Shown here one piece after another: positions 27,450-51,516 of a DNA stretch of 64,000 nucleotides. Position 1 is the first letter of the stretch; every line of letters starts with the position of its first letter. The translations under genes were made by a program, and so were the position numbers. The notes beneath the pieces are model-generated. The model did not search any database. It saw only the letters and a list, made by a program, of their open reading frames with translations, and was not told the DNA's origin. Source of the stretch: an uncultured bacterium (GTDB lineage: Bacteria; Krumholzibacteriota; Krumholzibacteriia; JACNKJ01); the NCBI GenBank assembly GCA_964344565.1, contig CAYFNT010000012.1:30648-94647 (forward strand), written 5' to 3'.

Positions 27450-28844
27450 ATGGCGGACTCCGATACCACGAAAAGCTCCGGCACATCCGCGCCGAGAGCC
27501 GCCCAGTACACCGAGGGGAGCGTGATCCGCTCGGTGCTGAACATGGGCTTTCCCTCCATGATCGGATTCGCCGCCACCAACGTCTACGACATCGTGGACA
27601 TGTTCTGGGTGGCCAAGCTCGGCGCATCCAGCGTGGCCGCCGTGACTCTCTTCTTCTCATTCTACTGGGTGATCAGCTCGGCCAACATGATCGCCGGGGC
27701 AGGATCCGTGGCGGTGATTTCGCGCCGTTTCGGCGAGGACGACATCCCCGGCACCGAAGCGGCCATCAAGGAATCGATCCTGCTCAAGCTGGGTCTCGCC
27801 TTGATCGTGGGCTTCGTGGGATACGGATTCCTCTGGCCCGTGCTCAGGCTATTGGGCGCGGAGGGCGAGATTCTGAGGCTCTCGGCCAGCTACGGCAGCG
27901 TGCAGCTCCTGGGCCTCGGCGTGAGCTTCTCGAGCTTCACCATCTACACGGCGCTCAGGAGCGTGGGAGAGCCGCGCAAGGCCATGGTGCTCATGATCGC
28001 GGGTGTGATCCTGAACATCGCCCTGGATCCCTTCCTCATCTTCGGCTGGGGGCCCTTCCCGCGGCTGGAAGTGGCCGGCGCGGCCTGGGCCTCGATCATC
28101 TCCTACGGCTTCACCTTCATCGCCGGCCTGTTCATGTTCTACGGCGGGTTCAGTTCCGTGCGCCTGCATCTGCGCGGGGCCGACCGCGTGAGGCTGAGCC
28201 GCATGATGCACATCCTGCGCATCGGCCTGCCCGCGGGCTTCAACAGCTTCTCCTTCTCACTCGGCCGCGCGGTGATCATGCCCATGGTGGCGGCCTTCGG
28301 CGCCAACGTGGTGGCGGTCTACGGCATGTCCATGCGGGTGACGGCTCTGGGCATCATGATCATCGTGGGCATGGGCCTCGGGCTCTCGGCCCTCATCGGC
28401 CAGAACCTCGGCGCCGGCAAGCCGGAGCGGGCCTGGGACACATCCATCGCCTCGATCCGCTTCCTTGTGGGCGTGACCAGCGTATTCTCGCTGATGGTGA
28501 TCCTGCTGGCGAGGCCCATCACCGGGGCCTTCTTCCAGGATACGGACATCCTCGCCATGGGCGTTCCCACCCTTCGCATCTTCGCCCTGGCCCTGCCCTT
28601 CGCCGCCCTGGGCATCACCTTCGACATTTCATGCAGCGGCGCGGGCGAGAACCGGGCGCCCATGCTCTTCTCGATGCTCCACACCTGGGTCCTGCAGATC
28701 CCCTTCATCCTCATCGCGACGAAACTGCTCGGGCTAGGTTATCAGAGCGTCTGGTGGGCCATGCTGCTTTCGGGCGTGATCGGACCGGGCTTCTTCTGGT
28801 TCACGTATTTCCGGAGAAGGACTTGGCTGGCGAGGAAGGTTTGA
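27450..28844 (+). CDS. MATE-family multidrug/oligosaccharidyl-lipid efflux transporter
   Basis: 464 aa with 12 predicted TM helices and a typical MATE N-terminus (IRSVLNMGFPSMIGFAATNVYDIVDMFWVAKLG). Confidence 0.85.
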   Translation: MADSDTTKSSGTSAPRAAQYTEGSVIRSVLNMGFPSMIGFAATNVYDIVDMFWVAKLGASSVAAVTLFFSFYWVISSANMIAGAGSVAVISRRFGEDDIPGTEAAIKESILLKLGLALIVGFVGYGFLWPVLRLLGAEGEILRLSASYGSVQLLGLGVSFSSFTIYTALRSVGEPRKAMVLMIAGVILNIALDPFLIFGWGPFPRLEVAGAAWASIISYGFTFIAGLFMFYGGFSSVRLHLRGADRVRLSRMMHILRIGLPAGFNSFSFSLGRAVIMPMVAAFGANVVAVYGMSMRVTALGIMIIVGMGLGLSALIGQNLGAGKPERAWDTSIASIRFLVGVTSVFSLMVILLARPITGAFFQDTDILAMGVPTLRIFALALPFAALGITFDISCSGAGENRAPMLFSMLHTWVLQIPFILIATKLLGLGYQSVWWAMLLSGVIGPGFFWFTYFRRRTWLARKV

Positions 28845-29094: not shown

Positions 29095-31590
29095 TCAGCC
29101 AATGGGCACCTCCTTCCCTTCACCCTGGCGACGCTCGAGGATCTTGGCGCGCTGTTTCTCCTTGCGGGCCGAAACCTTGCCCATTTCCTCGTCCAGGATG
29201 CGCTGGGTCTCCTCGATCTCCTCGAGGGTGACGAACTTGCGCATGCGGTCCAGGTCCTTCATCACCTTGGCGAACTTGCTTCCCTGGGCCGCGCTGATCC
29301 ACTCGAGCTGCAGGCGTTCGGGCCTGATGCCGAGCTTTTCGAGGCGGTTCCAGAGCTTCTCCACGCGTTTCTGCGTCCACTGCACCGCGTTGATGTAGTG
29401 GCAATCGGAGAAGTGGCAGCCGCTGACCAGCACCATGGACGATCCCTGGCGGAAGGCTTCGAGCACGAAGTCCTCGTCCACGCGACCCGAGCACATGGTG
29501 CGGATGAGCCGCGCATGGGCCGGATACTGGGAGCGATTGGTTCCGGCAAGGTCCGCGCCCGGATAGGAGCACCAGTTGCAGGCGAAGGTGACCACCTTCT
29601 CGTGGGCCTTCTCCGCGCAGATGGCTTCGATCTGAGCGTAGATCTGGTCATCGTCGTAGTGACGCATCTTGATGACGTCGGTGGGACACTCCGAGGCGCA
29701 GGTTCCGCAGCCGGCGCAGGCTGCTTCGATGACCTCGGGGAAGATCCCGCCCTTCTTGTCGGGCTTGGTGATGGCCCCGTAGGGGCAGACCGTGGCGCAG
29801 ATTCCGCACTGGGTGCAGTAGGTGTGATCGATCACCGAGGTGATGGCCTCGATGGTCACCTTCCCCGCATTCAGCAGAATGCTGGCCCGGCTCGAGGCCG
29901 CGCTGGCCTGCGTCACCGAGTCCTTCACGTCCTTGGGGAACTCGTTGCAGCCCGCGAAATAGACGCCGCGGCTAGGAGCGTCCACCGGCTTGAGCTTCGG
30001 GTGGCTCTCCATGTAGAAGCCGTCCGAGGTGTTCGAGAGATTCAGCAGCTTCTTGATGATGCCGCCGTCCCGCCGCGGGATGAGCCCCGTGGCCAGCACG
30101 ACCATGTCCAGTTCGTGCTTCTCGAGCTTGCCGGTGGTGGTGTTCTCCACGGTGATCTTGAGGTTGTTCGTTTCCGGATCCTCCTCGATGCCGCCGGGAA
30201 GACCGCGAACGTAACGCACGCCCTCGTCCTTGCTGCGCCGGTAGAGATCCTCGAATCCCTTGCCGAAGGCCCGAATGTCCATGTAGAACACCGAGCTCTC
30301 GCTGTCGGGATAGTGATCCGCCAGAAGCAGGGTGGACTTGACCGTGTTCATGCAGCAAATGTTGCTGCAGTAGGGATTTCCCTTGGGGGACAGGTCCCGC
30401 GAGCCCACGCACTGGATGAAGCCGATACGCTTGGGACGCTCCTTGTCCGAGGGTCGCATGAAGTGACCTTCGGTGGGGCCGCCCGCGCAGATCAGCCGTT
30501 CGAATTCCATCGAGGTGATGACGTTCGGGTAGCGCGTGTATCCGTATTCGTCGTACTCGGTGGGGTCGTAGACGTCCGCGCCGGTGGCCACGATGATCGC
30601 GCCCACCTCGACGTTGATGAACTCGTCCTCCATGTCGTAGTCGATGCAGCCCTTCTCGCAGACTTCCTTGCACTTGCCGCAGGCGATGGGATTGGTGCCC
30701 AGGCAGTTGTCCATGTCGATGAGGAAGGACGAGGGCACCGACTGCGGGAAGGGGATGTAGATAGCCTTCCGGCTGGAGAGACCCTCCTGATACTCGTCGG
30801 GAACGGCCACGGGACAGACCTCGACGCAATCGCCGCAGGCGGTGCACTCGGTCTCGTCCACGTACTTGGCCTTCTTGCGCACCGTCACGTGGAAATTGCC
30901 CACGAATCCGGTGACGTTTTCAACTTCGCTGCTGGTGAGGAGCTTGATCTTGGGATGCCGACCGACATCCATCATTTTGGGCCCCAGAATTCATATAGAG
31001 CAATCCATTGTGGGATAGGTCTTGTCCAACGCGGCCATGATCCCACCGATGCTCGCCTCCTTTTCCACCAGATAGACGTAGTGTCCCGCATCGGCCAGGT
31101 CGAGCGCGGACTGTATTCCCGCGACTCCCCCTCCAACGACCAGTGCGGCTTTCGTCACCGGAACTTCGGTCTCGATCTGAGGCTCCAGGAAGCGGGCCCG
31201 GGCCACGGATGAGGCGACCAGGTCCTTGGCCTTGGCGGTGGCCTCGCCTTTCTGCCCCGAGTGCACCCAACTCACGTGTTCGCGGATGTTCGCCATCTCC
31301 AGGAGGTAGGGGTTCAGTCCCGCCTCCTTCAGGCAATTCCGGAACGTGGGCTCGTGGATCTTCGGGGTGCAGGAGGCCACGACGACGCGATTGAGCTTGT
31401 GCTCGTGCACCGCCTTGATGATCTCCATCTGCCCGGGATCCGCGCAGGTGTACTTGTTTCCCACCACCGCCACCACATCGGGCAGGGTTGCCGCGAATTT
31501 CGCGACCTCCGCCGTGTCGACCGTGCCGGCGATGTTCTTTCCGCAATCGCAGACGAACACGCCGATGCGAAGGTCCTGCGGTTTTACCAT
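29095..31590 (-). CDS. hdrA: Heterodisulfide reductase subunit A (HdrA) fused to a C-terminal MvhD/FlpD domain; candidate selenoprotein with in-frame UGA (30993-30991) decoded as Sec
   Basis: ORFs 30991..31590 and 29095..30975 are collinear. They are separated only by TGA plus 15 nt in the same frame: ...[12 protein letters not shown][UGA][18 protein letters not shown]. This aligns with the canonical HdrA ...FPT.DCSMCILAPKMV..GRHPNIKL, with the UGA exactly at the second Cys of the redox CxxC. The N-terminal 4Fe-4S domain ([12 protein letters not shown]) and FAD site ([20 protein letters not shown]) are present. The C-terminal 140 aa are an MvhD domain ([15 protein letters not shown]...[10 protein letters not shown]). 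Confidence 0.75.
30953..30970 (-). ncRNA. Candidate bacterial SECIS-like hairpin about 23 nt downstream of the hdrA UGA
   Basis: mRNA GGAUG-UCGGUCGG-CAUCC: a 5-bp stem with an 8-nt loop containing GGU, beginning 23 nt 3' of the UGA. The position is compatible with a SelB-binding SECIS, but it is weakly defined. Confidence 0.25.
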
Positions 31591-32735
31591 GAACCATTAC
31601 CTCCATCGATGGACTCGGCCACCACCGTGGCGAAGTCGCGGATTTGGAGACTGCTCAATCGATCATCCTTTTCGCTGGCCTGGGCGCAGCGCAAATGAAT
31701 CTGGCATTTGGGACAGGCCGTGACGAGGGTCTCGGCCCCCGCGTCGGCCGCCTCGCGGAGACGCTCGGTCTGGATGCGCTTGGACACCGCGTTGCAGTGC
31801 ATCCAGCCTGAGGTGCCGCAGCAGACGCTGTCCTTTCCGTGATGCTCCATCTCGTGGAAACTCTCGCCGAAGATCTCGCCGAGGGCCGCCCGGGGCGCTT
31901 CGTATTCGCCCAGGTGCCGGCTGAGACGACAGGGATCCTGGAATGTCACCTCGCCCTTCAGGCCGCCGAATTCCACCCCACCATTCTCGCCCTTCCGCGC
32001 GAGGTATTCGGAGAGGTGAAGCGCCTCGTAGGGCACCTCGCCGGCGAGTTTCGGGTAGATCTCCCGCAGCATGAAGACGCATTCGGGACAGGACGAGACC
32101 ACCGTCTTCGCGCCGGCGGCCGCGATCTTCTCCACGTTCTTACTGGCGAGCCGGGCCGCGCTCCTCTCGTCGCCGCTCCAGTACAGGTCATGGCCGCAGC
32201 AGAGCTCGTCGGGCAGCAGCACGGGCTCTTCGCCCAGGGCATTGAGCACGCGGAGGGTGTCCTTGCCGATGCGCTGGGTGTCGGTGCCCAGATGCGTGTA
32301 GTAGCTGTCGTAATAGGGGAGGCAGCCGGTGAAGTAGAGCAGCTCGCCCTCGCCGGCCGTCTTCGCCTCCTCGGGCACCCATCCCAGGCGCTTCTGCTCG
32401 CGGCCGTTCTGGCTCATGATGCGCATCATGTGCTGGAAGACCGCGCCGTGGCTGCAGGCAGGGTCCGCGCCGTCGGCGCGCAATACCTCGCGTCCCTTGC
32501 GGGTGAACTGGGAATAGTCCACTTCTGAGGGACAGACCAGGCTGCAGAGCATGCAGGTGAGGCAGAGGTTGAACTTGGCCGGGGCCTGTCCTTCCGGGGC
32601 ATGCACCGCATGGGTCACCACCATGCGCGGCGAGAACTCCTCGTCGTATCGGGAGACGGGGCAGACGCCCGTGCACTTGCCGCAGTCCTGACAGAGCGTG
32701 GCATGAGTCTCGCGGAGGGCTTCCCTGAGGATCAT
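31584..32735 (-). CDS. HdrD-like Fe-S oxidoreductase (HdrC-type 2x[4Fe-4S] plus two HdrB-type CCG domains)
   Basis: The real start is ATG 32735 ([21 protein letters not shown]); the 511-aa ORF-track version carries a spurious N-terminal extension. Motifs [12 protein letters not shown] and [12 protein letters not shown] (ferredoxin), then LCCGHDLYW and VCCGTSGW (CCG domains). The stop overlaps the hdrA start (ATGGTAA). Confidence 0.75.
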
Positions 32736-33172
32736 CACTTCACCTCCGTGAGCTGGGGGACGGCTCCGATGGGGCCGCGAGGTCCGCTGGCTTCGAGCTG
32801 ATCGCGGAACTCCTGGACCGTTTCGAGGATCCGATCCGCCTTTCCCGGAGGGAAGAAGCGCACCCTGAAACGACTGGATTCCACACCGAGCATGTCCAGC
32901 ATGGGATCCACCCGACCGATGGTGTTCTCGAGCATCGCCGTGCCCGTGCCGTAGTGGCAGTCGCCCTCCTCGCAGGCCGCGATGAAGACGCCGTCGGCGC
33001 CCGACTCGAAAGCCTGCAGCACGAAGGAGGGATGGATGCGCCCCGTGCAAAGACTGCGGAGCACCGCGCTGCCCTCGGGCAGTTCGCGCTCCTCCTCCAG
33101 ACCCAAGGGGAAGCACCACTTGCAGGAGAAGATCATGAGGCGAGGTTTCCAGTTGCCTTCGATGGTTTTCAT
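32735..33172 (-). CDS. mvhD: MvhD/FlpD-like (methyl-viologen-reducing hydrogenase delta subunit family) small Fe-S protein
   Basis: The real start is ATG 33172 (MKTIEGNWKPRLMIFSCKWCFPLG..., SD GGAGGTGA). It shows the MvhD signature with conserved Cys (CKWC...CTGRI...ACEEGDCHY). ATGA overlap with the downstream gene. Confidence 0.7.
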   Translation of the reverse strand: MKTIEGNWKPRLMIFSCKWCFPLGLEEERELPEGSAVLRSLCTGRIHPSFVLQAFESGADGVFIAACEEGDCHYGTGTAMLENTIGRVDPMLDMLGVESSRFRVRFFPPGKADRILETVQEFRDQLEASGPRGPIGAVPQLTEVK

Positions 33173-35169
33173 GAGCTCACCTCCACGCTCTCCCTGAGAA
33201 GGGCGTCGATCTCCCGGCGGACGAAGTCGTTCCGGAAGTATCCCGGAACCATGGCCTGGGTGGGACAGAGGGGCACGCAGTTTCCGCATCCCTTGCAGCG
33301 GTCCGCGAGCACCCTCGCCACCTGGACGTCCTCGCCCCGGTGCTCCATGATGATGGCCTCGTAGTCGCAGCCCTTTAGGCAGTCCTCGCAGCCGCGGCAG
33401 AGCTTCTCGTTCACCTGGCAGACCAGGCTCGAGAGCTTCATGCCCAGGCGTTCGACCACCTTCTTGCCTTCGCGCCGGCTCTTCCATTCCAGAGCCACCG
33501 GTTCGGGAAGGAGGGGGAGCGGGAACTGCTCGTCGTTGTCGGGAATGCGCAGGAAGAGCGGCACGCTGTGCTCGCTCTCATCGAAGGAGAGCAGGCCGAT
33601 GCGGTAGCGGCAATCGCCCGCGCAGGTCTGGCACTCGTCGCAGGGCCCGCAGCGGAGGCAGCGTCCGGCTTCGGCCACCGCCATGTCCTGGGCGAAACCG
33701 AGTTCGACCTCGTCGAAACCGCCTCGCTTCTCCACCGGCAGTTCGGGTTGCACGGCCCGCCTGCGCTCGGAGGGCAGGGGAGGCTGCACGCCCACCTCGA
33801 TGGGACGGGAGGATTCGTCGCCGAAGGCGCGCCCCTCCAGCCAGGCGTGGGCGGCCTTGGCGGCGCGGTGCCCCTGGGCGATGGCGCCGATGACCGTGTC
33901 GGGTCCCAGCACCAGGTCGCCCGCGGCGAAGACGCCTTCCACGTCGGTCATGAGGCTCGCGGAATCGGCCTCGAGGGTGCCCCAGCCGCTTTTCTTGAAG
34001 GGCAGGTCCTCGGGCAGCAGGTCGAGGTTGGCTTCCTGGCTGATGGCCGGAACGATGAGGTCGGCCTCCACCGTGAAGGTGTCGTCCTTGATGGGCACGG
34101 GACGGCGGCGTCCGCTCTCGTCGGGCTCGCCCAGTTCCATGCGCTGGCAGAGAAGCCCCGTGACCTTGCCCTTCTTGCCGACCACTTCCAGCGGTCCGGC
34201 CAGGAAGGTGAAGGTGACGCCCTCGTTCTCGGCCTCGACCACCTCCTCGGGCACGGCGGGCATCTCATCCTTGGTGCGCCGGTAGACCACCTCGACCTTC
34301 TCGAAGCCGAGGCGGCGGGCGGTGCGGGCCGCGTCCATGGCGCTCATGCCGCCGCCCACGACGATCAGGCTCTTCCCCTTTGGAATGGCCTTGCCGCGGC
34401 TGGCCATACGCAGGAAGGTGAGGCAGTCGAAGACGCCCGAGTTCTCCCGCTCGCCGGGCACGTTCATCTTCTTGCCCAGGGCGGCGCCCAGGGCGAGGAT
34501 GACGGCGGCGTAGCCTTCGTCGCGGATTTCTTCCAGGGTGATGTCCTTGCCCACGCGCAGGCCGGTCTTGATCTCCACGCCCAGGGATTCGATGTGGGCG
34601 ACTTCGCCCGCCACGATCTCGCGGGGCAGGCGGAAGGAGGGGATGCACTGAACGAGCATGCCGCCGGCGGTCTCGTCGGACTCGTAGACCGTGACGCCGT
34701 AGCCCAGGTGAGCCAGGTCGAAGGCCGCGGCCAGTCCGGCCGGACCCGCGCCGATGACGGCCACCTTCTCCGGTCTGCTACCGGCCACGCGCGCCGGCGC
34801 CGGACCCGGATTGTCCAGCTCCCAGTCGGCCACGAAGCGCTTGAGCAGCCGGATGGCCAGGGGGTCGTCCAGGTCGCTGCGTCGGCAGTTCAGTTCGCAG
34901 GGATGGGTGCAGACGCGTCCGCAGATGCCGGGCAGGGGACAGTCCTTGCGCACGAGTTCCACCGCCTCGCGGAACTTGCCGTCGGCGATGAGGCCCACGT
35001 AGCCCTTCACGTTCACGCCGGCCGGACAGGCCGCGTGGCAGGGGGAGGCGTCGATGCGCTGGAGCAGGCGGGGACCGTAGCGTCCTCCCAGATCCATTTG
35101 GATACCGCCCGTTTCCAGGGCCTGCCAGAAACTCTCCGGGAATCCCGATTTCCAGAGGGGCTTGACCAA
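33169..35169 (-). CDS. GltD/NfnB/SudA-like NAD(P)H:acceptor oxidoreductase (FAD/NAD binding, N-terminal 2x[4Fe-4S]) with C-terminal ferredoxin-like extension
   Basis: TTG start 35169 with SD GGAGGA 6 nt upstream. N-terminal CHAACPAGVN...CPLPGICGRVCTHPCELNC. Two Rossmann motifs (VAVIGAGPAGLAAA, LIVVGGGMSAMDAA). C-terminal CLRCGPCDECQTCAGDC and CRGCEDC...CKGCGNCVPLCP. Confidence 0.75.
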   Translation of the reverse strand: MVKPLWKSGFPESFWQALETGGIQMDLGGRYGPRLLQRIDASPCHAACPAGVNVKGYVGLIADGKFREAVELVRKDCPLPGICGRVCTHPCELNCRRSDLDDPLAIRLLKRFVADWELDNPGPAPARVAGSRPEKVAVIGAGPAGLAAAFDLAHLGYGVTVYESDETAGGMLVQCIPSFRLPREIVAGEVAHIESLGVEIKTGLRVGKDITLEEIRDEGYAAVILALGAALGKKMNVPGERENSGVFDCLTFLRMASRGKAIPKGKSLIVVGGGMSAMDAARTARRLGFEKVEVVYRRTKDEMPAVPEEVVEAENEGVTFTFLAGPLEVVGKKGKVTGLLCQRMELGEPDESGRRRPVPIKDDTFTVEADLIVPAISQEANLDLLPEDLPFKKSGWGTLEADSASLMTDVEGVFAAGDLVLGPDTVIGAIAQGHRAAKAAHAWLEGRAFGDESSRPIEVGVQPPLPSERRRAVQPELPVEKRGGFDEVELGFAQDMAVAEAGRCLRCGPCDECQTCAGDCRYRIGLLSFDESEHSVPLFLRIPDNDEQFPLPLLPEPVALEWKSRREGKKVVERLGMKLSSLVCQVNEKLCRGCEDCLKGCDYEAIIMEHRGEDVQVARVLADRCKGCGNCVPLCPTQAMVPGYFRNDFVRREIDALLRESVEVSS

Positions 35170-35206: not shown

Positions 35207-35758
35207 CTAGCCCACGGGGGCCAGGAGTTTTTGTCCTTCCTCGAAGCCCGTCGCGAAGGCCTTGAGGTTGAGTTCGATGGTGCTTCCGGGCACCGAGCTC
35301 TCCACCGCTTTCTCCACCGCTTCCCGGTCGACGATGCCCGTCACGGCCGTGGTGAATCCCACCACGACGATGTTCTGGACGATGCGGTTGCCCAGTTCCT
35401 CGGCCAGTCGCGCCGCCTGAATGCCGTAGGCGTTCACTTCCGGACGATCGTGGGGGCTCACCAGGTCGCTGTCGTAGACGAGGATCGCGCCGTCCTTGAG
35501 CTCGTCGGCGTACTTTTCGTAACCCTCGCGACTCAGCGCGATGAGCACGTCGGTGCCGGTGAGATAGGGATAGGCGATGAACTCGTCGTCGACGACCAGG
35601 GCCGAGGCGCAGGCGCTGCCTCGAGCTTCGGGGCCGAAACTCTGCGTCATGGTCGAGTGGATGTTGCCGAAGATGGCCGCCGCCTTGCCGAAGATGTATC
35701 CGGTCAGAATGACGCCCTGGCCGCCGTAGCCGGTGATGCGAATCTCCGTCCTAGGCAT
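35207..35758 (-). CDS. 2-oxoacid:ferredoxin oxidoreductase gamma subunit
   Basis: Start ATG 35758 (MPRTEIRITGYGGQGVILTGYIFG, SD AAGGAGGA); the listed 205-aa ORF has a spurious extension. POR/KOR gamma family. Confidence 0.8.
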   Translation of the reverse strand: MPRTEIRITGYGGQGVILTGYIFGKAAAIFGNIHSTMTQSFGPEARGSACASALVVDDEFIAYPYLTGTDVLIALSREGYEKYADELKDGAILVYDSDLVSPHDRPEVNAYGIQAARLAEELGNRIVQNIVVVGFTTAVTGIVDREAVEKAVESSVPGSTIELNLKAFATGFEEGQKLLAPVG

Positions 35759-36668
35759 GGAGCTCCTCCTTGCACATTTCGCAGGCTTCCTCGTGGAGGT
35801 AGTACTTCTCGCCGAGCGTGGCATCGTGCTGCTCCATGCTCTTCATCCTCCAGGTGGGACGATCCCGGTCGACGAATCTGCCCACCGTGATCTTGTTCTG
35901 ATAGCCGATGTCGATCTCCCGCGGATCGGCTCCGTGCTGGATCTCGGCGTTGTCGTGGTAGAAACGCATGAGATCGTAGCCGCTGCCCAGCTTGTTGCGT
36001 CGCGCGTAGAGCGTGGAGCAGGGCGCGATGGCCTCCACGAAGCTGAAGCCCGGCTTGAGCAGGGCCTCCTTCAGGGAGTCGGTCAGTCGCCGCACGTGCA
36101 GGGAGGTCCAGCGCGCCACGTAGGTGGCGCCGCAGGCTTCCATGAGGTGGGGAAGGTTGAAGGGCTGCTCGTAGGCTCCGTGGGGAGTCGTCGAGGTGTT
36201 GGCCGTATGGGGCGTGGTGGGGGCCACCTGCCCGCCGGTCATGCCGTAGATGAAGTTGTTCACGCAGACCACGGTGATGTCCATGTTCCGCCGGGCGGCG
36301 TGGATGATGTGATTGCCGCCGATGGCGAAGAGGTCGCCGTCGCCGCTGAAGACCACGACCTTGAGCTTGGGGTTGGCCAGCTTCAGGCCCGTGGCGAAGG
36401 GGATGGCCCTGCCGTGGGTGGTGTGATAGCTGTCCAGCTTCACGTAGCCCGCCACGCGGCCCGTGCAGCCGATGCCCGAGACGATGGCCACGTCGTCGTA
36501 GTCGATGCCGGCCTTGTCGATGGCCTCGGCGAAGCACTTCACCACGGTGCCGATGCCGCAGGTGGCGCACCAGATGTGCGGCAGCCGGTCGGCCCTCAGC
36601 AGGTGATCCATGGGGTGGCGATCTTCCTCCACCGCGTCGTAGCAGGCGTCAATCGTCTTCTCGCTCAT
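35751..36668 (-). CDS. 2-oxoacid:ferredoxin oxidoreductase beta subunit (TPP-binding)
   Basis: Start ATG 36668 ([13 protein letters not shown]). The 661-aa ORF-track version is an extension through the alpha gene in another frame. Motifs WCATCGIG, GIGCTGRV and FSGDGDLFAIGGNH (TPP-binding). Confidence 0.85.
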   Translation of the reverse strand: MSEKTIDACYDAVEEDRHPMDHLLRADRLPHIWCATCGIGTVVKCFAEAIDKAGIDYDDVAIVSGIGCTGRVAGYVKLDSYHTTHGRAIPFATGLKLANPKLKVVVFSGDGDLFAIGGNHIIHAARRNMDITVVCVNNFIYGMTGGQVAPTTPHTANTSTTPHGAYEQPFNLPHLMEACGATYVARWTSLHVRRLTDSLKEALLKPGFSFVEAIAPCSTLYARRNKLGSGYDLMRFYHDNAEIQHGADPREIDIGYQNKITVGRFVDRDRPTWRMKSMEQHDATLGEKYYLHEEACEMCKEELHA

Positions 36669-37825
36669 TTCGCCGCCTCCTCGATGGCCCGGAGAATGTC
36701 CTCCGGGTTGTGCACGGTGCCTCCCATGTGGGGGACCAGTATGGTTTCGGCCTTGCCCTCGGCGCAGCGTTCCACCTCGAGGCTGATCTGGCCGTAGTTG
36801 ATCTCGGGGACCACGATGGCCTTCACCTGTTCGGCGAGTTCCTTCACCCGCCAGTCGGGGAAGGGCCAGACGGTGAGCAGACGAACCGTGCCCACCTTGA
36901 TGCCCTTGGCCCGCGCCGCGTCGATGGCCGCGCGGGAGACCCGCGAGGTGATGCCGTAGGAGAGCAGGATGACCTCGGCTCCCTCGACCTCTTCCTCCTC
37001 GAGCATCACGATGTCCCGGGCATTGTCGCGGATCTTGTCGCAGAGCCGCCGGACCAGGGTGTCCTGCACATTGGCGTCCATGGCGGGATAGCCGCGATCG
37101 TCGTGGGTCAGGCCCGTGATGTGGTAGCGGTGCCCCTCGCCGGCGTGGGCCATGGCGGGGATCTGATCCTCTCCGACCTCGTAGGGCAGGTACTCGCCCT
37201 TGGGCTTGTCGGTCATCTTCCGGGGGAGGATCTTGATCTGGTCCGCCTCGGGAATGACCACCCTCTCGGTCATGTGGCCGATGCACTCGTCGAGCATCAC
37301 GAAGACCGGCGTGCGGTACTTCTCGGCGAGGTTGAAAGCCTTGATGGTCAGGGTGAAGGCTTCCTGGGGACTCTGCGGCGCGAGGGCGATGATCTCGTAG
37401 TCGCCGTGGCTGCCCCAGCGGGCCTGCATGATGTCCTGCTGGCCGACCATGGTGGGCAGACCGGTGGAGGGACCGGCGCGCTGCACGTTCACGATGACGC
37501 AGGGCGTCTCGGTCATGGCCGCCAGGCCGATGTTCTCCATCATCAGGCTGAAGCCCGGTCCGCTGGTCACGGTCATGGACTTCGCGCCGCCCCAGGTCGC
37601 GCCCAGGATGGCGGTGACCGAGGCGATCTCGTCCTCCATCTGGATGAAGGTTCCGCCGAGGGTCGGAATGCGGCGGGCGTAGCGCTCGACCACTTCCGTG
37701 GAGGGCGTGATCGGATAGCCCGCGACGAAATCGCAACCGGCGGCCAGGGCGCCTTCGGTGCAGGCGTGGTCGCCGTCGAGGTAGTGACTGCCCGTGAGCA
37801 CTCGCTTCGGATCAGCTAGCTTCAC
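36665..37825 (-). CDS. 2-oxoacid:ferredoxin oxidoreductase alpha subunit
   Basis: GTG start 37825 with SD GGGGAGGTG. POR/KOR alpha family ([29 protein letters not shown]). ATGA overlap with the beta gene. Confidence 0.85.
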
Positions 37826-38102
37826 TTCGCACCTCCCCTTCCTTCTTCTCCGGCAGGACGAAGATGGCGAAGTCGGGGCAGATCACTTCGCAGAGGTCGC
37901 AGTCGACGCATCGATCGGCCTGCTTCACTTCCGGATAGTGATAACCCTTGGCATTGAACTCGGCGGACATGACGAGCACGTCCCGCGGACAGAACTCCGC
38001 GCAGAACTCGCAGCCTTTGCAACGTTCGATGATGATGTGGATGTCGCCACGCGGGACTTTGATATCGTGGACATCGAGGGGCTCGCGCCAATACCGCGGC
38101 AT
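37812..38102 (-). CDS. 2-oxoacid:ferredoxin oxidoreductase delta subunit (2x[4Fe-4S] ferredoxin)
   Basis: 96 aa with [12 protein letters not shown] and [12 protein letters not shown]. First gene of the delta-alpha-beta-gamma cluster. Overlaps the alpha-subunit start. Confidence 0.8.
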
Positions 38103-41710: not shown

Positions 41711-43171
41711 GTGGTTTTGCGGATTCTGATCCTGATAATATCAATGATGACAAGCGGATCTGTATACGCACTAACTCTCGATGCAGCGAGGGAGTTTCTG
41801 CAGTGCCTTCGATCATCCCCTGATTCAGCTGAGCAGTTTGTGCATCCCGACGACTTGAAGATTTCTCGTCGATTGGGAATCACCTATCCCGAATCGCAAT
41901 CGAAGGCACTGATCTCCTGGGGATTGACCGAAGAAGAGAGGCGGCGATTGTCCCAGACGACAATCGAGCAGCAGATCCGAATCGATCAGCTGGAAGACGG
42001 CTACTCCAGACTCATCCTCTTTCCAGACGATACCATCGCGTCGCGCTCATGGATCTTCAAGGATGGCAAGCAGGTATCGTCCATCCTCTACAAGGTGAAG
42101 GATTGGGTGCTTCGCGAGTCGAAACATTTCAGGTTTTATCTGAGTGATCCGTCGCGATTCCATGATAAGAATGTCGAGGTGCTCGAGGCATTTCTGGTGG
42201 AGACGGCTGAGTTGCTTGGAATCACGGAATCCCGACTGGAGCGGCTCGAGGACGAGAAGATCATCTATTGCTTCTGCCAGAATCAGGAAGAGATCCGTGA
42301 TCTGACGGGCTTCTTCGCGAGGGGGATGTACATTCTCTCCCATGATCTAATCGTGTCGACCTACAGTTCACACGCCCATGAACTCGCTCATCTCTTGATC
42401 AACTACAGACTTGGCACTCCGCACCTGTTCACTCATCCCATGCTCCTGGAAGGCTTCGCCGTCGCAAGGGGAGGGAGAGGGGGCAGGGCTCCGCGGATTC
42501 AGCATCAATTGGGTGCTTTCTTGCATCGATCCGGTTGGGTGACTCCGGATGATCTGCTGGATGCTGCCTCCTTCTTCCGGCTCAACGCATCCATTTCCTA
42601 TCCGGGGAGCGCCCTGTACAACGAGTTCCTCATCGAATGTCTGGGCATCGAGAAGTACCTGAAGCTCTACCTGGAGTCGGGCGGCGATGCCGAACGAGTC
42701 TCATATCTACGGATCTCTTCAAAGGATTTGCCGGATGAATCCCGCTGGCTGGCCTATCTAGATTCTCAACCCACGATAGGGGCTGTCGCACCGTCGGCTG
42801 GTGCGTTTCCTTCAACTTCGGATCCAGTACTGTTCGAGAACGATCCCGATGCTGATCGCTATAGGTTCGTCCTGCCCGAAGTCGCGGTTCTGGTCGATGG
42901 CTCTGAAGTATCCGACTACAGGAGCTTCCTGTTCAAAGAACTGGTCCCGGACAGGCCCTACTCCGGAGGCCGGTACCTGTTGACCTGTTCACGTGCGGAA
43001 GTCGGGCTGTACGACCTATACACGAATACCATGATCGCCCACTATGCGGCTGCGTTCGCGGAGAATTCTATCGAGATACCCGAGAACGATGGTCGGTACA
43101 GCTTCACAATCGAGGCGGACTTGTTCGATCTGGACATCGATCCACCCCGTTTCGAGTTGGCGAGAGAGTAG
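41711..43171 (+). CDS. Secreted hypothetical protein with HExxH motif (possible zinc metallopeptidase-like); low-GC island
   Basis: GTG start 41711 gives the signal-peptide-like MVLRILILIISMMTSGSVYA. Motif SSHAHELAHLLINYRLG. GC is about 52% versus about 66% for its neighbours. No recognisable family. Confidence 0.5.
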   Translation: MVLRILILIISMMTSGSVYALTLDAAREFLQCLRSSPDSAEQFVHPDDLKISRRLGITYPESQSKALISWGLTEEERRRLSQTTIEQQIRIDQLEDGYSRLILFPDDTIASRSWIFKDGKQVSSILYKVKDWVLRESKHFRFYLSDPSRFHDKNVEVLEAFLVETAELLGITESRLERLEDEKIIYCFCQNQEEIRDLTGFFARGMYILSHDLIVSTYSSHAHELAHLLINYRLGTPHLFTHPMLLEGFAVARGGRGGRAPRIQHQLGAFLHRSGWVTPDDLLDAASFFRLNASISYPGSALYNEFLIECLGIEKYLKLYLESGGDAERVSYLRISSKDLPDESRWLAYLDSQPTIGAVAPSAGAFPSTSDPVLFENDPDADRYRFVLPEVAVLVDGSEVSDYRSFLFKELVPDRPYSGGRYLLTCSRAEVGLYDLYTNTMIAHYAAAFAENSIEIPENDGRYSFTIEADLFDLDIDPPRFELARE

Positions 43172-49114: not shown

Positions 49115-50650
49115 TCAGAACCATGTCTTGAGGGTGAGCTTGAATTCGTCGCGCATCCGTCCACCCGACTCGAAATCGCTGTCGTTCACCAATTCGCCCC
49201 AGTCCCCGTAGTTTTCGGGACCATAGGAGAGGAAGAATTCGAGATTGTCGTGAGGACGGTATTGAATCTGTGTGTAGAGCATCGAACGCGCCTCGATGGC
49301 GTCGCTGGCCACCATGAACCTGTTGTACCATTTCCACTGCGTGGTGAGGTTCAGAGTGGTTTCGAGTCCATAGATGCGTTTCTCGCTGCGGGTGTCCCAG
49401 TCCTTGATCTTGAACTGGGTTTTCAGCCAGGCCAGGCGATTCTCCACGATGAGTTCCACGAGCCAGTCGTAGTGCTTATAGTGGACGCCCTGCCAGGTAT
49501 CGTCGAAACGCTGGTGGCTGAGGTTCACCTTGAAGCCGTTGATGAACTCGACGTAGACGTTCTGGTTCATCCAGCGTTTCGGATCATTGGTCAAGAGCAG
49601 CGTGCGACCATCATCGATGGAATCGTAGATGTAACGATCCACGCGCCGCTTGGCGCCCCATTCGAGTGTGTAGGTGATCGCCCTCTGAGGCAGGATGTAG
49701 TAGCTGTGAAGGTTGTAGCCGACCTCGTTGGTGGCGTCGCCGCCCTGATAGTTCTTGTAGTCGGGCCCCAGGCGCCAGTAGCTGAGATTGACAGTGTAGT
49801 GGCCGAGTGCGTGATTGCCCATCTGGAAGTTGCGCATCTCGGCTTTGATCGCCGCGTCCCTTGGGACGGCGGCCTCCAGCCATGCGAAGGGCTTGCCGCC
49901 GTGCCAATCGGGTAGGTCCCAATGATCGTCGCCGATGGTCTCGGAGGGCACCCGGCTGGCAGCGTACTGGGCCGAAAAATCGGCCACGGGGCTGACCCAT
50001 AGGAAGTCGCCGCTGATCACGCTGTTGTACTGCTTTGTGAAGTCGGTGTCGACGTCGGCGTAGTTCTTCCGAACATAGGACATGCCGAGGTAGGATCCCG
50101 AATCACCCAAACGCCGGGTTCCCCGGAGGAGATGGACGTCATCGGTGACTTCGATGGCATCGGTTCCGTAGTCATCCTGCGAGGAAAAATCGCTGAAGAC
50201 GTAGACACCGTACCAGGGATCGGCCCACCCCTCCATGCGCAGGCCTTGGGCGTTGTCGCCGTCCTTGACGTTGTCTTCCTTGACCAACTCCAGCAGATGG
50301 TTTCCGATCCAGAAGCGCTTTTCGCGGGTGAAGAGGAAGGCTTCGGCGGCCTTGGGCCCGTCCTCGACGCGATACTTGAGATGCCCCTCGTAGAGGAAGA
50401 AGGCCGGTTGTGGCGCTGAGTTGTTCCAGCGGTCCCAGCGCGAACCCAGCTTTGCCCAGAGTTCGCCGCGATGGGACAGGTTCGCCCGCAGCTTCATTTC
50501 GAAGTAATTGCTGGGGCGCCAGAGGTCCCAGCTCTGGTCGTCGTTGACCCGCGTGCCGCCCACATTGCTTTCCCAGTAGCCCTCGAGCACCGTGGCTGCC
50601 TGCGCTGAGACCGAGCCGAGAAGAAGGATCAGAAGGAGCGCTCGCTTCAT
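49115..50650 (-). CDS. Outer-membrane beta-barrel protein (C-terminal ...FKLTLKTWF), unknown specificity
   Basis: Signal peptide MKRALLLILLLGSVSAQA. Tyr/Trp/Asn-rich alternating pattern and a terminal aromatic residue. Confidence 0.55.
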   Translation of the reverse strand: MKRALLLILLLGSVSAQAATVLEGYWESNVGGTRVNDDQSWDLWRPSNYFEMKLRANLSHRGELWAKLGSRWDRWNNSAPQPAFFLYEGHLKYRVEDGPKAAEAFLFTREKRFWIGNHLLELVKEDNVKDGDNAQGLRMEGWADPWYGVYVFSDFSSQDDYGTDAIEVTDDVHLLRGTRRLGDSGSYLGMSYVRKNYADVDTDFTKQYNSVISGDFLWVSPVADFSAQYAASRVPSETIGDDHWDLPDWHGGKPFAWLEAAVPRDAAIKAEMRNFQMGNHALGHYTVNLSYWRLGPDYKNYQGGDATNEVGYNLHSYYILPQRAITYTLEWGAKRRVDRYIYDSIDDGRTLLLTNDPKRWMNQNVYVEFINGFKVNLSHQRFDDTWQGVHYKHYDWLVELIVENRLAWLKTQFKIKDWDTRSEKRIYGLETTLNLTTQWKWYNRFMVASDAIEARSMLYTQIQYRPHDNLEFFLSYGPENYGDWGELVNDSDFESGGRMRDEFKLTLKTWF

Positions 50651-51516
50651 CTCGCTACCTCCCGGCTACCGAAGATGGGTGAGAGCGAGAAGGTTAGGGT
50701 GTTGCCCAGGCGCCCACGGCTCTGGAATGCGAAGTCCATGTTCCAGCGTGCTGCCCTCAGGCCGAAGCCGGCGGTGGCGTAGCGCCCGGTGGTGCCGCCG
50801 CGAATGTGGAAGGCGTCGAAGAAGCGAAGCTCGGAGCCGAAGATGAGTTCGGCTTCCCGTCCGGGGATCGACCTGTACTCGAAGAGCAAGGCGAGATTGC
50901 TCCTCCAGAGGTAGGTGGCGGCCAGGCGGCTCTCGCTTCTCGCCATGCCCCAGGATTCCCCTCCATCGAGCATCTCGATCTCGCTGGCTGCAAGACTCTT
51001 CGCCAGGATCGCGAAGGACAGGTTCCTGCTGTAGGGAAGCAGGACAGAGGCGTCGAAGGTGAAGCCGCGCATGGAATCGATGAGGTCGCTGCCGTCGTAG
51101 CCGGGTACGTCGAGGATCAGACCCCGGAACCGCATGCCAATGCCCAGGTTCCGTCCTAGGAACTTGATACTCCAACCCGCCCCCAGGCTGATCTCGTCTT
51201 CCACCCAGAGATCGCTCAGTCCGTATCGATGCCAGGCGACCGAGAGTCCTCCCGAGCGATAGGGCTGCAGCCAGGCCGCCGTCGATGAACGCACGCCACT
51301 GCCGTACCAGTCGTGCAGCAGGAAGTGTGCGCCTGCTCCCTGCAGATAGGGGAGCCGCGCCGGATTCGCGAGGGATGAGGCCGCATCGGTCTCGATACCC
51401 GTGGCGTTGCCTCCCAGGGCCTCCGAACGTCCGTCCAGTACGATCTGCGAGAAGAGCTCGGCTTGAGTCGATGAAGCGAGGGCCAGTACCCCGAGAAGGA
51501 GCAAGAGTCTCTTCAT
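50647..51516 (-). CDS. Putative PorP/SprF-family T9SS outer-membrane protein (cognate partner of the adjacent type-B CTD cargo)
   Basis: Real start ATG 51516 (MKRLLLLLGVLALASSTQA). N-terminus ELFSQIVLDG...SLANPARLPYLQGAG resembles the PorP/SprF FSQY...NPAyaG signature. Size (about 290 aa) and beta-rich composition fit. It lies immediately downstream of a type-B CTD protein. Confidence 0.45.
   Translation of the reverse strand: MKRLLLLLGVLALASSTQAELFSQIVLDGRSEALGGNATGIETDAASSLANPARLPYLQGAGAHFLLHDWYGSGVRSSTAAWLQPYRSGGLSVAWHRYGLSDLWVEDEISLGAGWSIKFLGRNLGIGMRFRGLILDVPGYDGSDLIDSMRGFTFDASVLLPYSRNLSFAILAKSLAASEIEMLDGGESWGMARSESRLAATYLWRSNLALLFEYRSIPGREAELIFGSELRFFDAFHIRGGTTGRYATAGFGLRAARWNMDFAFQSRGRLGNTLTFSLSPIFGSREVAR

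What the first reader, a model, noticed from the sequence alone, without database searches (positions are those of the whole stretch)
29095..31590. HdrA-MvhD fusion is a candidate selenoprotein: in-frame UGA replaces the second Cys of the redox CxxC
Two adjacent minus-strand ORFs (30991..31590 and 29095..30975) are in the same frame. They are separated by a single TGA plus five codons. The junction reads ...[25 protein letters not shown]. This is collinear with the canonical HdrA motif ...DCSMCILAPKMV.VGRHP. The stop therefore sits exactly where a catalytically relevant Cys is expected. That is the hallmark of Sec recoding, not of a pseudogene or two separate genes. Sec-containing HdrA is known in Methanococcales and some Deltaproteobacteria. 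Here it occurs in a high-GC organism whose proteins carry T9SS sorting domains, and it is fused to MvhD. A weak hairpin (GGAUG-N8-CAUCC) lies 23 nt downstream as a possible SECIS.
Basis: partly seen in the sequence, partly recalled or inferred. Interest (0 to 1): 0.75.

Follow-up and report, generated by a model that had tools for sequence, protein, structure and literature searches.

The report
Selenocysteine-containing HdrA2 with conserved SECIS
The apparent stop codon inside this heterodisulfide-reductase gene almost certainly encodes selenocysteine, read with the help of a small RNA hairpin just downstream. It is a well-supported but ordinary new member of a selenoprotein family known since the 1990s-2000s.

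Summary
One in-frame TGA (window 30991-30993, minus strand) joins two ORFs into an 831-aa HdrA-MvhD fusion of the NCBIfam HdrA2 family.

The TGA is codon 200. It aligns with Cys197 of the solved M. thermolithotrophicus HdrA. It also aligns with the non-standard residue 197 of chain 9sfi_A, which I take, without verification, to be the M. maripaludis HdrA whose Sec197 is published.

- All 100 hdrA copies found in metagenome relatives and in 80 species-representative genomes carry TGA at this site. These come mostly from FCB-group candidate phyla and are 66-83% identical.
- The two halves are in the same frame in 80/80 loci and are about equally conserved.
- The five codons between the TGA and the next ATG change only synonymously or conservatively (I-L-G-P-K/R).
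- Twenty nt after the UGA lies a 7-bp hairpin with a GGUC loop, GGAUGYC-GGUC-GRCAUCC. It meets every criterion of the published bacterial SECIS model.
- The hairpin is intact in 103 of 106 distinct TGA sequences. It is absent from all 26 Cys-codon homologues that encode the same peptide.
- TGA is otherwise a normal stop here, and it also terminates hdrA itself.

No selA/B/C/D was found, and the rest of the genome could not be searched.

This is a new member of a known kind, of modest interest.

The parts
29095..31590 (-). Full hdrA2 gene: 831 codons, with Sec at codon 200, plus a terminal TGA stop at 29095-29097.
   Evidence: Single frame. NCBIfam NF040770 HdrA2 scores 1154 bits against a cut-off of 1100. 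Residues 6-658 match 5odc_A HdrA at E 5.5e-235.
30991..30993 (-). In-frame UGA, the proposed selenocysteine codon 200.
   Evidence: Aligns with Cys197 of 5odc_A and X197 of 9sfi_A. TGA in 100/100 homologous copies.
31000..31002 (-). TGC codon for Cys197, the partner cysteine of the C-S-I-U motif.
   Evidence: A Cys-Sec197 selenylsulfide is proposed in M. maripaludis HdrA (PMC13518236).
30976..30990 (-). Five in-frame codons (I-L-G-P-K) between the UGA and the ATG that gene callers take as the start of a second gene.
   Evidence: In 106 distinct homologous sequences these codons vary only synonymously (ATH, CTN/TTR, GGN, CCN, AAR) or by K->R. They are therefore translated in this frame.
30953..30970 (-). 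SECIS hairpin GGAUGUC-GGUC-GGCAUCC. The loop is at 30960-30963. The stem starts 20 nt after the UGA, and the UGA-to-loop spacing is 27 nt.
   Evidence: MFE -8.8 kcal/mol, with 0 of 200 shuffles folding as well. Perfect in 103/106 distinct TGA sequences and in 0/26 Cys-codon sequences. Pair 29-36 is UA 83, UG 11, CG 11, with none unpaired.
29251..29601 (-). C-terminal MvhD (FlpD) domain of the fusion, residues about 664-780.
   Evidence: PF02662 E 5.3e-44. Matches 5odc_D MvhD at E 5e-38.
31584..32735 (-). HdrC/HdrB-like fusion protein (two [4Fe-4S] motifs plus two CCG domains), 383 aa. Its stop overlaps the hdrA start.
   Evidence: PF02754 CCG E 2e-30 plus Fer4 families. Gene call in L145. Weak NCBIfam hits to HdrB, HdrC, GlpC and TfrB.
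32735..33172 (-). Stand-alone MvhD-like protein, 145 aa.
   Evidence: PF02662 E 1.3e-26. Gene call in L145.
33169..35169 (-). GltD/NfnB-like NAD(P)H-binding flavoprotein with a C-terminal 2x[4Fe-4S] domain, 666 aa.
   Evidence: PF07992, PF14691 and Fer4_7. NF009410 'NAD(P)-binding protein' scores 495.6 bits, below its 516-bit cut-off.
35207..38102 (-). Four-subunit 2-oxoacid:ferredoxin oxidoreductase (delta, alpha, beta, gamma) immediately upstream on the same strand.
   Evidence: Pfam TPP_enzyme_C and POR. Precomputed Pfam marks POR_N, PFOR_II and Fer4_7 on the L145 gene calls.

Best explanation
The two ORFs are one gene, hdrA2. It encodes an 831-residue HdrA-MvhD fusion flavo-iron-sulfur protein in which codon 200 (UGA) is translated as selenocysteine.

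Proposed mechanism; the steps are inferred from the established bacterial Sec pathway and were not shown here:
1. An 18-nt hairpin lies inside the coding sequence, 20 nt 3' of the UGA. It has a 7-bp stem and a GGUC apical loop.
2. [quoted passage not shown]
3. SelB delivers Sec to the ribosome when the UGA reaches the A site.
4. Translation then continues through I-L-G-P-K-M-M... to the real stop, another UGA that has no such hairpin.

In the protein, Sec200 and Cys197 form the C-x-x-U pair of the thioredoxin-reductase-like FAD domain. In methanogen HdrA the equivalent pair has been proposed to cycle as a selenylsulfide close to the bifurcating flavin.

The gene is the last in an operon with an HdrC/B-like CCG protein, a second MvhD, an NfnB/GltD-like NAD(P)H flavoprotein and a 2-oxoacid:ferredoxin oxidoreductase. 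The complex is therefore most likely a flavin-based electron-bifurcating or confurcating module. It would link ferredoxin, NAD(P)H and an unidentified disulfide-type acceptor in an anaerobic FCB-group heterotroph. This functional reading is inference from gene content.
For: - Reading frame and junction.
- Family membership: HdrA2 NF040770 at 1154 bits (cut-off 1100), HdrA and MvhD of 5odc.
- Site equivalence: codon 200 = Cys197 of 5odc_A with no gaps = X197 of 9sfi_A. Sec197 forming a selenosulfur bond with a Cys is reported for M. maripaludis (PMC13518236).
- HdrA was the fourth most numerous bacterial selenoprotein family in the 2006 survey (PMC1794560).
- UGA conservation: TGA in all 100 hdrA copies from 7 metagenome contigs and 80 GTDB species genomes at 66-83% identity. 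The scan patterns were degenerate peptide patterns, so they did not favour TGA.
- Both halves are in the same frame in 80/80 loci, with median identity 75% (N part) and 70% (C part).
- The five codons after the UGA change only synonymously or K->R.
- SECIS, model criteria: 4-nt loop, 7-bp stem, G at loop positions 1-2, 27 nt from the UGA, -8.8 kcal/mol. All criteria of the bSECIS model in PMC13188914 are met.
- SECIS, synonymous sites: GAT GTC GGT CGR CAT are fixed in 95/95 TGA sequences encoding DVGRH. The 16 Cys-codon sequences encoding the same DVGRH use 2-4 codons at each of these positions, and none of the 26 Cys-codon sequences forms the hairpin.
- SECIS, covariation: the one variable pair is UA, UG or CG and never C·A.
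- The loop GGUC equals the apical loop of the E. coli fdhF SECIS.
- TGA is an ordinary stop in this window, including for hdrA itself.
Against: - No tRNA-Sec, selA, selB or selD was found in the window, in the 10 kb beyond its start or in 1.19 Mb of related loci.
- The rest of the genome could not be searched, so the decoding machinery is inferred, not shown.
- The selA/selD search of the related loci used E. coli sequences recalled from memory. It is therefore a weak negative.
- Folding of the 74-151 nt around the site is no more stable than shuffled sequence (z about 0). Single-sequence thermodynamics alone would not have identified the element.
- The homologous sequences are phylogenetically related, so counts such as 103/106 against 0/26 are not independent trials.
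- There is no proteomic or selenium-labelling evidence.
Confidence: 0.93

Rival explanations
1. The gene is truly split. The UGA terminates a 199-aa N-terminal HdrA fragment, and a separate 626-aa protein starts at the ATG 15 nt downstream. The two polypeptides then assemble.
For: Gene callers annotate it this way in every assembly. An ATG-ATG pair follows the UGA. Some termination at Sec codons is expected in any selenoprotein gene (general knowledge).
Against: - The 15-nt 'intergenic' stretch always has the same length and frame. It varies only at synonymous sites of I-L-G-P-K/R, which match V/I-L-G/A-P-K in Cys homologues.
- The stop is always TGA, never TAA or TAG, in 100/100 copies.
- The stop replaces a conserved cysteine that sits next to the flavin in solved structures.
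- A hairpin of SECIS type co-occurs strictly with the TGA.
Confidence: 0.03
2. The gene is a pseudogene, or the TGA is an assembly or sequencing error: a nonsense mutation of TGC/TGT.
For: A single base change (TGC/TGT to TGA) would produce it.
Against: - The same TGA occurs in independent assemblies from other samples and in 80 different species genomes.
- Both halves are conserved at 66-85% identity and remain in frame.
- The gene sits in an intact operon with overlapping start and stop codons.
Confidence: 0.005
3. The UGA is decoded, but not as Sec. Either UGA is reassigned genome-wide (Trp or Gly, as in codes 4 and 25), or Cys is inserted by SelB with a non-canonical tRNA(Cys) that reads UGA.
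For: Sec machinery was not observed. SelB-dependent Cys insertion at Sec codons by a non-canonical tRNA(Cys) has been reported; this rests only on the title of Vargas-Rodriguez et al. 2018, seen in a reference list (PMC13582414). The paper itself was not read.
Against: - Genome-wide reassignment is excluded. Many genes in the window, including hdrA itself, end with TGA, and only one TGA interrupts coding sequence.
- The aligned residue in homologues is Cys or Sec, not Trp or Gly.
- The Cys-by-SelB variant cannot be excluded from sequence. It would use the same hairpin, but it is rare.
Confidence: 0.03

Closest known systems
Sec-containing HdrA of Methanococcales (structure 9sfi; Sec197 described for M. 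maripaludis in PMC13518236)
   Same: The Sec position is identical: C-x-x-U in the FAD/thioredoxin-reductase-like domain, with window codon 200 aligned to X197 of 9sfi_A. The domain order and the Fe-S cysteine motifs are the same. Residues 6-658 align end to end with the archaeal HdrA structures.
   Different: - The archaeal genes use a 3'-UTR SECIS; here the element lies inside the coding sequence, as in bacteria.
- Here HdrA is fused to MvhD.
- The host is a non-methanogenic FCB-group bacterium, so CoM-S-S-CoB is unlikely to be the substrate.
- The partner genes are NfnB/GltD-like and OFOR, not the Vhu hydrogenase or Fwd.
Bacterial Sec-HdrA of Deltaproteobacteria and Clostridia (Syntrophobacter, Syntrophus, Desulfotalea, Moorella and others; PMC1794560)
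   Same: It is a bacterial selenoprotein of the HdrA family, encoded in a cluster with MvhD/FrhD-like and GlpC/HdrD-like genes.
   Different: - The lineage differs: FCB candidate phyla, with a Krumholzibacteriota MAG as the closest named relative.
- It is the HdrA2 (HdrA-MvhD fusion) subtype.
- The neighbouring MvhD and CCG proteins have no in-frame TGA here, whereas FrhD and GlpC are often selenoproteins in Deltaproteobacteria.
- No direct alignment with those proteins was made here.
HdrA2 (NCBIfam NF040770), Cys-containing form, e.g. Chloroflexota/Dehalococcoidia HdrA2 (P0002-P0120)
   Same: It has the same fusion architecture and about 63-67% identity over 96-99% of the length. The local peptide [18 protein letters not shown] is the same.
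   Different: These proteins have TGY (Cys) at the site and free synonymous variation where the hairpin would be. A few members of that same clade (L093, L118, L121, L132; about 79-82% identical to Cys-type P0010) carry TGA plus the hairpin. Sec/Cys switches therefore occur between close relatives.
E. coli fdhF SECIS
   Same: It is a stem-loop within the coding sequence downstream of the UGA, with the identical apical loop GGUC.
   Different: - The loop lies 27 nt after the UGA here and 18 nt after it in fdhF.
- The stem here is a perfect 7 bp, without the bulged U of fdhF.
- There is no conserved lower stem; the flanking positions vary freely.

Membership tests
Bacterial selenoprotein gene (Sec-UGA + bSECIS) | An in-frame UGA aligned with Cys (or Sec) in homologues. 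| tested here: met
   Codon 200 aligns with Cys197 of 5odc_A, with X197 of 9sfi_A and with Cys in Chloroflexota HdrA2.
Bacterial selenoprotein gene (Sec-UGA + bSECIS) | The UGA is conserved in orthologues, and the coding sequence is conserved on both sides in the same frame. | tested here: met
   100/100 copies have TGA. The frame is the same in 80/80 loci, with N-part median identity 75% and C-part 70%. The five codons after the UGA change only synonymously or K->R.
Bacterial selenoprotein gene (Sec-UGA + bSECIS) | The bSECIS model (PMC13188914): apical loop of 3-9 nt, upper stem of 4-16 bp, G in the first two loop positions, 16-37 nt between the UGA and the loop, MFE <= -7.5 kcal/mol. | tested here: met
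   The loop is GGUC (4 nt), the stem is 7 bp, the spacing is 27 nt, and the MFE is -8.8 (18-nt hairpin) or -10.3 kcal/mol (48 nt).
Bacterial selenoprotein gene (Sec-UGA + bSECIS) | The RNA element is under selection independently of the encoded peptide. | tested here: met
   Synonymous sites of D-V-G-R-H are fixed in 95/95 TGA sequences and variable in 16 Cys-codon sequences encoding the same peptide. The hairpin is present in 103/106 TGA sequences and 0/26 Cys-codon sequences. The variable pair is UA, UG or CG only.
Bacterial selenoprotein gene (Sec-UGA + bSECIS) | The Sec machinery (selA, selB, selC/tRNA-Sec, selD) is present in the same genome. | not testable with these tools
   It is absent from the window, from the 10-kb extension L149 and from 1.19 Mb of related loci.
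Bacterial selenoprotein gene (Sec-UGA + bSECIS) | Selenium is actually incorporated at the site. | not testable with these tools
   This needs 75Se labelling or mass spectrometry.
HdrA2 (HdrA-MvhD fusion; NCBIfam NF040770) | The whole-protein score reaches the curated cut-off. | tested here: met
   1154.1 bits against a cut-off of 1100, covering profile positions 1-775 of 777. Cys was substituted for Sec in the query.
HdrA2 (HdrA-MvhD fusion; NCBIfam NF040770) | An HdrA body (N-terminal Fe-S domain, FAD/TrxR-like domain, inserted and C-terminal ferredoxin domains) followed by an MvhD [2Fe-2S] domain. | tested here: met
   Residues 6-658 match 5odc_A at E 5.5e-235. Residues 664-780 match 5odc_D at E 5e-38. 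Pfam FlpD and Fer4 families also hit.
CoB-CoM heterodisulfide reductase (enzymatic function) | Reduces CoM-S-S-CoB in a methanogen or methanotroph, with canonical HdrB and HdrC partners. | tested here: inconclusive
   The partner is an HdrC/B-like fusion that matches HdrB and HdrC models only weakly, far below their cut-offs (TIGR03288 33.7 bits against 345). The host is an FCB-group bacterium and no methanogenesis genes are in the window. The substrate is unknown.

The most novel reading that the evidence does not exclude
This Sec-type HdrA2, with a nucleotide-invariant 18-nt SECIS, is the standard form across a whole set of little-studied FCB-group candidate phyla. These include Krumholzibacteriota, Zixibacteria, KSB1, Calditrichota, Eisenbacteria, Latescibacterota and Fidelibacterota/Marinimicrobia.

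That would imply that selenocysteine decoding and a selenium-dependent electron-bifurcating Hdr-NfnB-like complex are core, ancient traits of these lineages, and that automatic annotation has systematically missed them by splitting the gene.

I found no paper in the searchable library that describes this. Large selenoproteome surveys that I could not read may already cover it.
Probability: 0.3. Interest if true: 0.45.

Novelty: new member of a known kind. Interest (0 to 1): 0.3.

Why it matters
Practically, the gene is mis-annotated as two ORFs (199 aa and 626-627 aa) in every public assembly examined. HdrA2 is therefore undercounted or truncated in metabolic reconstructions of these uncultured anaerobes.

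Biologically, the finding shows that this organism and many FCB-group relatives depend on selenium for a central electron-bifurcating flavoenzyme.

The matched Sec and Cys homologues encode an identical local peptide. They give an unusually clean natural experiment for defining a minimal bacterial SECIS: a 7-bp stem, a GGUC loop and a 27-nt spacing.

The finding does not change what is known about how Sec is decoded or about what HdrA is.

Tried and rejected
1. Single-sequence folding of 74 nt and 151 nt around the site gave z-scores near 0. Thermodynamics alone is uninformative here. Only the isolated 18-mer stands out (z -3.3).
2. Rfam has no hit at the site.
3. ARAGORN found no tRNA-Sec in the window or in 144 related loci totalling 1.19 Mb.
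4. A tblastn search with E. coli SelD and SelA sequences recalled from memory found nothing in the window or the loci. This is a weak negative because the queries were unverified.
5. Pfam and NCBIfam annotation of essentially all window genes found no selA, selB or selD.
6. Extending 10 kb beyond the window start (L149) showed only MttB-family, corrinoid and methyltransferase genes plus surface proteins.
7. A scan for further TGA-interrupted genes in the window found none. My first version of that filter was too strict and missed even hdrA, so I relaxed it.
8. Literature searches for Sec or selenoproteins in Zixibacteria, Latescibacteria, Krumholzibacteriota, KSB1 and Marinimicrobia found nothing relevant.
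9. Genome-wide UGA reassignment was considered and rejected, because TGA terminates many genes here, including hdrA.
10. A conserved lower SECIS stem was considered and rejected, because the flanking positions vary freely.
Full report
**Observation**

On the minus strand, translation from 31590 runs to a TGA at 30993-30991 and continues in the same frame to a TGA stop at 29097-29095. The junction reads ...[25 protein letters not shown].... The second starts at an ATG five codons after the TGA. A scan of all six frames found no other place in the window where a TGA separates two segments with coding-like composition. The other same-frame junctions are TAG stops between consecutive genes.

**What the gene is**

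With Cys placed at the TGA, the 831-aa product reaches the curated cut-off of NCBIfam NF040770, 'CoB-CoM heterodisulfide reductase HdrA2' (1154 bits against 1100).
- Residues 6-658 align end to end with the solved HdrA of Methanothermococcus thermolithotrophicus (5odc_A, E 5.5e-235).
- Residues 664-780 align with MvhD of the same complex (5odc_D, E 5e-38).
- Pfam finds FlpD/MvhD (E 5e-44) and several 4Fe-4S domains in the C-terminal ORF. It finds the FAD-binding Rossmann start in the N-terminal ORF.

**The site**

In the ungapped block of the 5odc_A alignment the offset is 3, so codon 200 corresponds to Cys197 (D-C194-S-I-C197-I-L-A-P-K). In chain 9sfi_A the aligned residue 197 is a non-standard residue, printed X in ...DDCAMXILAPKMV.... 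I take 9sfi to be the Methanococcus maripaludis Hdr-Vhu-Fwd super-assembly; no tool result confirmed that link. The paper on that assembly describes Sec197 of HdrA bonded to a cysteine. It proposes a selenylsulfide relay near the bifurcating FAD and states that the role is unresolved (PMC13518236). The UGA therefore sits at a documented Sec position of this protein family. HdrA was the fourth most numerous bacterial selenoprotein family in a 2006 survey, with examples in Deltaproteobacteria and Clostridia (PMC1794560).

**Not an artefact or a pseudogene**

- The window is part of ENA contig ERZ930068 k127_54894 (96.9 kb). Seven contigs read from several runs and assemblies of project PRJEB17505 carry the identical downstream ORF.
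- A 95%-identical gene on contigs from other samples, and an 85%-identical one, keep the TGA.
- A scan of one genome per GTDB species returned 80 loci at 66-83% identity. Almost all are from FCB-group MAGs: Krumholzibacteriota (76%, the closest named), KSB1, Zixibacteria, Calditrichota, Eisenbacteria, Latescibacterota, Fidelibacterota/Marinimicrobia and Ignavibacteria. A few are labelled Acidobacteriota, Nitrospinae or Anaerolineae.
- Every hdrA copy in these loci has TGA at the site, 100 of 100. This includes a second paralogue present in 12 of them.
- The scan used degenerate peptide patterns, so it could not have selected for TGA or for particular codons.
- The N-terminal and C-terminal parts are in the same frame in 80/80 loci. 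They are about equally conserved, with median identity 75% and 70%.

**The spacer is translated**

Across 106 distinct TGA-containing junction sequences, the five codons between the TGA and the ATG are ATH, CTN/TTR, GGN, CCN and AAR (or Arg codons in the paralogue). The variation is synonymous or conservative only, and the peptide matches V/I-L-G/A-P-K of the Cys homologues. A non-coding gap between two genes would not behave this way.

**The SECIS element**

Twenty nucleotides after the UGA lies GGAUGUC-GGUC-GGCAUCC (window 30970-30953).
- It forms a perfect 7-bp stem with a 4-nt loop. Its energy is -8.8 kcal/mol, and none of 200 shuffles of the 18-mer fold as well.
- It meets each criterion of the consensus bacterial SECIS model quoted in a 2026 review (PMC13188914): loop of 3-9 nt, stem of 4-16 bp, G in the first two loop positions, 16-37 nt between UGA and loop (27 here), and MFE <= -7.5 kcal/mol.
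- The loop GGUC is identical to the apical loop of the E. coli fdhF SECIS. I confirmed that sequence in 5,419 of 5,426 E. coli genomes and folded it.
- Folding of longer stretches around the site is no better than shuffled sequence. The argument therefore rests on comparison, not on thermodynamics.

**Comparative test of the hairpin**

The hairpin lies in codons for M-D-V-G-R-H-P. Cys-type HdrA2 proteins of Chloroflexota share this peptide, which gives a natural control. A metagenome scan seeded with a Cys-type protein returned both types.
- Among 95 distinct TGA sequences encoding DVGRH, the codons are always GAT GTC GGT CGR CAT.
- Among 16 Cys-codon sequences encoding the same peptide, the codons are GAC/GAT, GTG/GTA/GTC, all four GGN, CGC/CGT/CGA and CAC/CAT.
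- The intact hairpin with a GGUC loop occurs in 103 of 106 distinct TGA sequences and in 0 of 26 TGY sequences. The sequences are related, so the nominal Fisher P of 1.5e-24 overstates independence. However, synonymous sites flanking the element are saturated in the same alignment.
- The only variable stem pair is U-A (83), U-G (11) or C-G (11), and never C·A. Five pairs are invariant, and 99.6% of cells are paired, against 20-57% when the partner column is slid.
- No conserved lower stem is apparent.
- The base after the UGA is A in all 106 TGA sequences. I did not follow this up.

**UGA is otherwise a stop**

Many genes in the window end in TGA, including hdrA itself at 29095-29097. The recoding is therefore position-specific and not a variant genetic code.

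**Machinery**

No tRNA of any kind is in the window. Pfam and NCBIfam annotation of essentially all window genes found no selA, selB or selD. None was found in the 10 kb beyond the window start either. ARAGORN found no tRNA-Sec in 1.19 Mb of related loci. A tblastn search with recalled E. coli SelA and SelD found nothing there. This defining feature remains untested and is the main gap.

**Context and likely function**

On the same strand, with overlapping stop and start codons, lie these genes in order:
- a four-subunit 2-oxoacid:ferredoxin oxidoreductase (38102-35207);
- a 666-aa GltD/NfnB-like NAD(P)H flavoprotein with two extra [4Fe-4S] motifs (35169-33169);
- a stand-alone MvhD (33172-32735);
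- an HdrC/HdrB-like CCG protein (32735-31584);
- hdrA2.

By analogy with characterised HdrABC-MvhD modules, this is most likely a flavin-based electron-bifurcating or confurcating complex. It would couple ferredoxin, NAD(P)H and a disulfide-type acceptor. The substrate is unknown, and CoM-S-S-CoB is unlikely in a T9SS-bearing, polysaccharide-degrading FCB-group bacterium. This part is inference from gene content.

**Comparison and novelty**

The finding is a correct call of a selenoprotein gene belonging to a long-known selenoprotein family, at the known Sec position, with a canonical bacterial SECIS. What is new is limited:
- the lineage;
- the HdrA2 fusion subtype;
- the observation that the Sec form with an invariant SECIS is universal among the closest 80 species-level relatives;
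- the fact that every assembly examined annotates the gene as two ORFs.

I found no paper in the searchable library on Sec use in these phyla. That is absence from a partial library, not proof of novelty. Classification: new member of a known kind, interest about 0.3.

Noticed in passing
window 1018-1117 (-), inside the ORF 596-2062 (-): There is an Rfam PYLIS_3 (pyrrolysine insertion sequence, mttB) hit just at the gathering score (38.3 against 38). The gene is an uninterrupted 488-aa MttB-family methyltransferase (Pfam MTTB E 4e-78; TIGR02369 at 340 bits, below its 525-bit cut-off). The model's UAG position is CUG here. It is therefore a non-pyrrolysine MttB homologue, and the RNA hit reflects coding-sequence homology. 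Downstream, in L149, lie genes with Met_synt_B12, B12-binding and S-methyl_trans domains.
   Followed up: yes
L093, L118, L121, L132 compared with L088-L106 and L120 (metagenome loci): Within the Chloroflexota-like HdrA2 clade (about 79-86% identical to Cys-type P0010), a few members have TGA plus the same GGAUGUC-GGUC-GACAUCC hairpin, and the next codon changes from Val (GTG) to Ile (ATA). Most members have TGY and no hairpin. One Cys-type sequence, L120, still forms 6 of the 7 pairs, which may be a fossil SECIS. Sec/Cys switching therefore happens between close relatives.
   Followed up: partly
L013, L023, L025, L027, L031, L033, L036, L041, L045, L051, L058, L064, about 5 kb upstream of the main hdrA: Twelve related genomes carry a second hdrA paralogue. 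It also has TGA at the same site and, in 11 of the 12, a hairpin variant (GGAUGCC-GGUC-GGCAUCC, Ala instead of Val). This variant supplies the compensatory C-G pair. The window has no such paralogue at the equivalent place.
   Followed up: partly
window 31584-35169 (-): The GltD-like protein and the CCG protein upstream of hdrA each partially match NCBIfam NF045663 'diclust_near_Sec' (181 and 79 bits, cut-off 530). This is a fused pyridine-nucleotide-disulfide oxidoreductase/dicluster protein whose short name, diclust_near_Sec, suggests a link to Sec. Here the two parts are separate genes.
   Followed up: no
window 38283-62843: There is a large alpha-glucan utilisation cluster. It contains GH57 proteins with FlgD_ig/T9SS-type C-termini, an amylo-alpha-1,6-glucosidase, a GH13 pullulanase-like protein with CBM48/CBM53, an ABC sugar transporter and an alpha-glucan phosphorylase. 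Four ORFs of 354-511 aa in it have no Pfam or NCBIfam match: 41711-43168, 49118-50650, 50669-51730 and 51516-52694.
   Followed up: no
window 30990 (-), the base after the UGA: The nucleotide 3' of the Sec codon is A (UGA-A) in all 106 distinct Sec-type sequences. It is G in 21 of 26 Cys-type sequences. This may be a context requirement for recoding, or simply the Ile/Val difference.
   Followed up: no
window 27450-28844 (+): A MatE efflux gene lies between hdrA and the GNAT gene in the window. It is absent at that place in the 95%-identical relatives L001-L004, so it is a small indel difference between strains.
   Followed up: no
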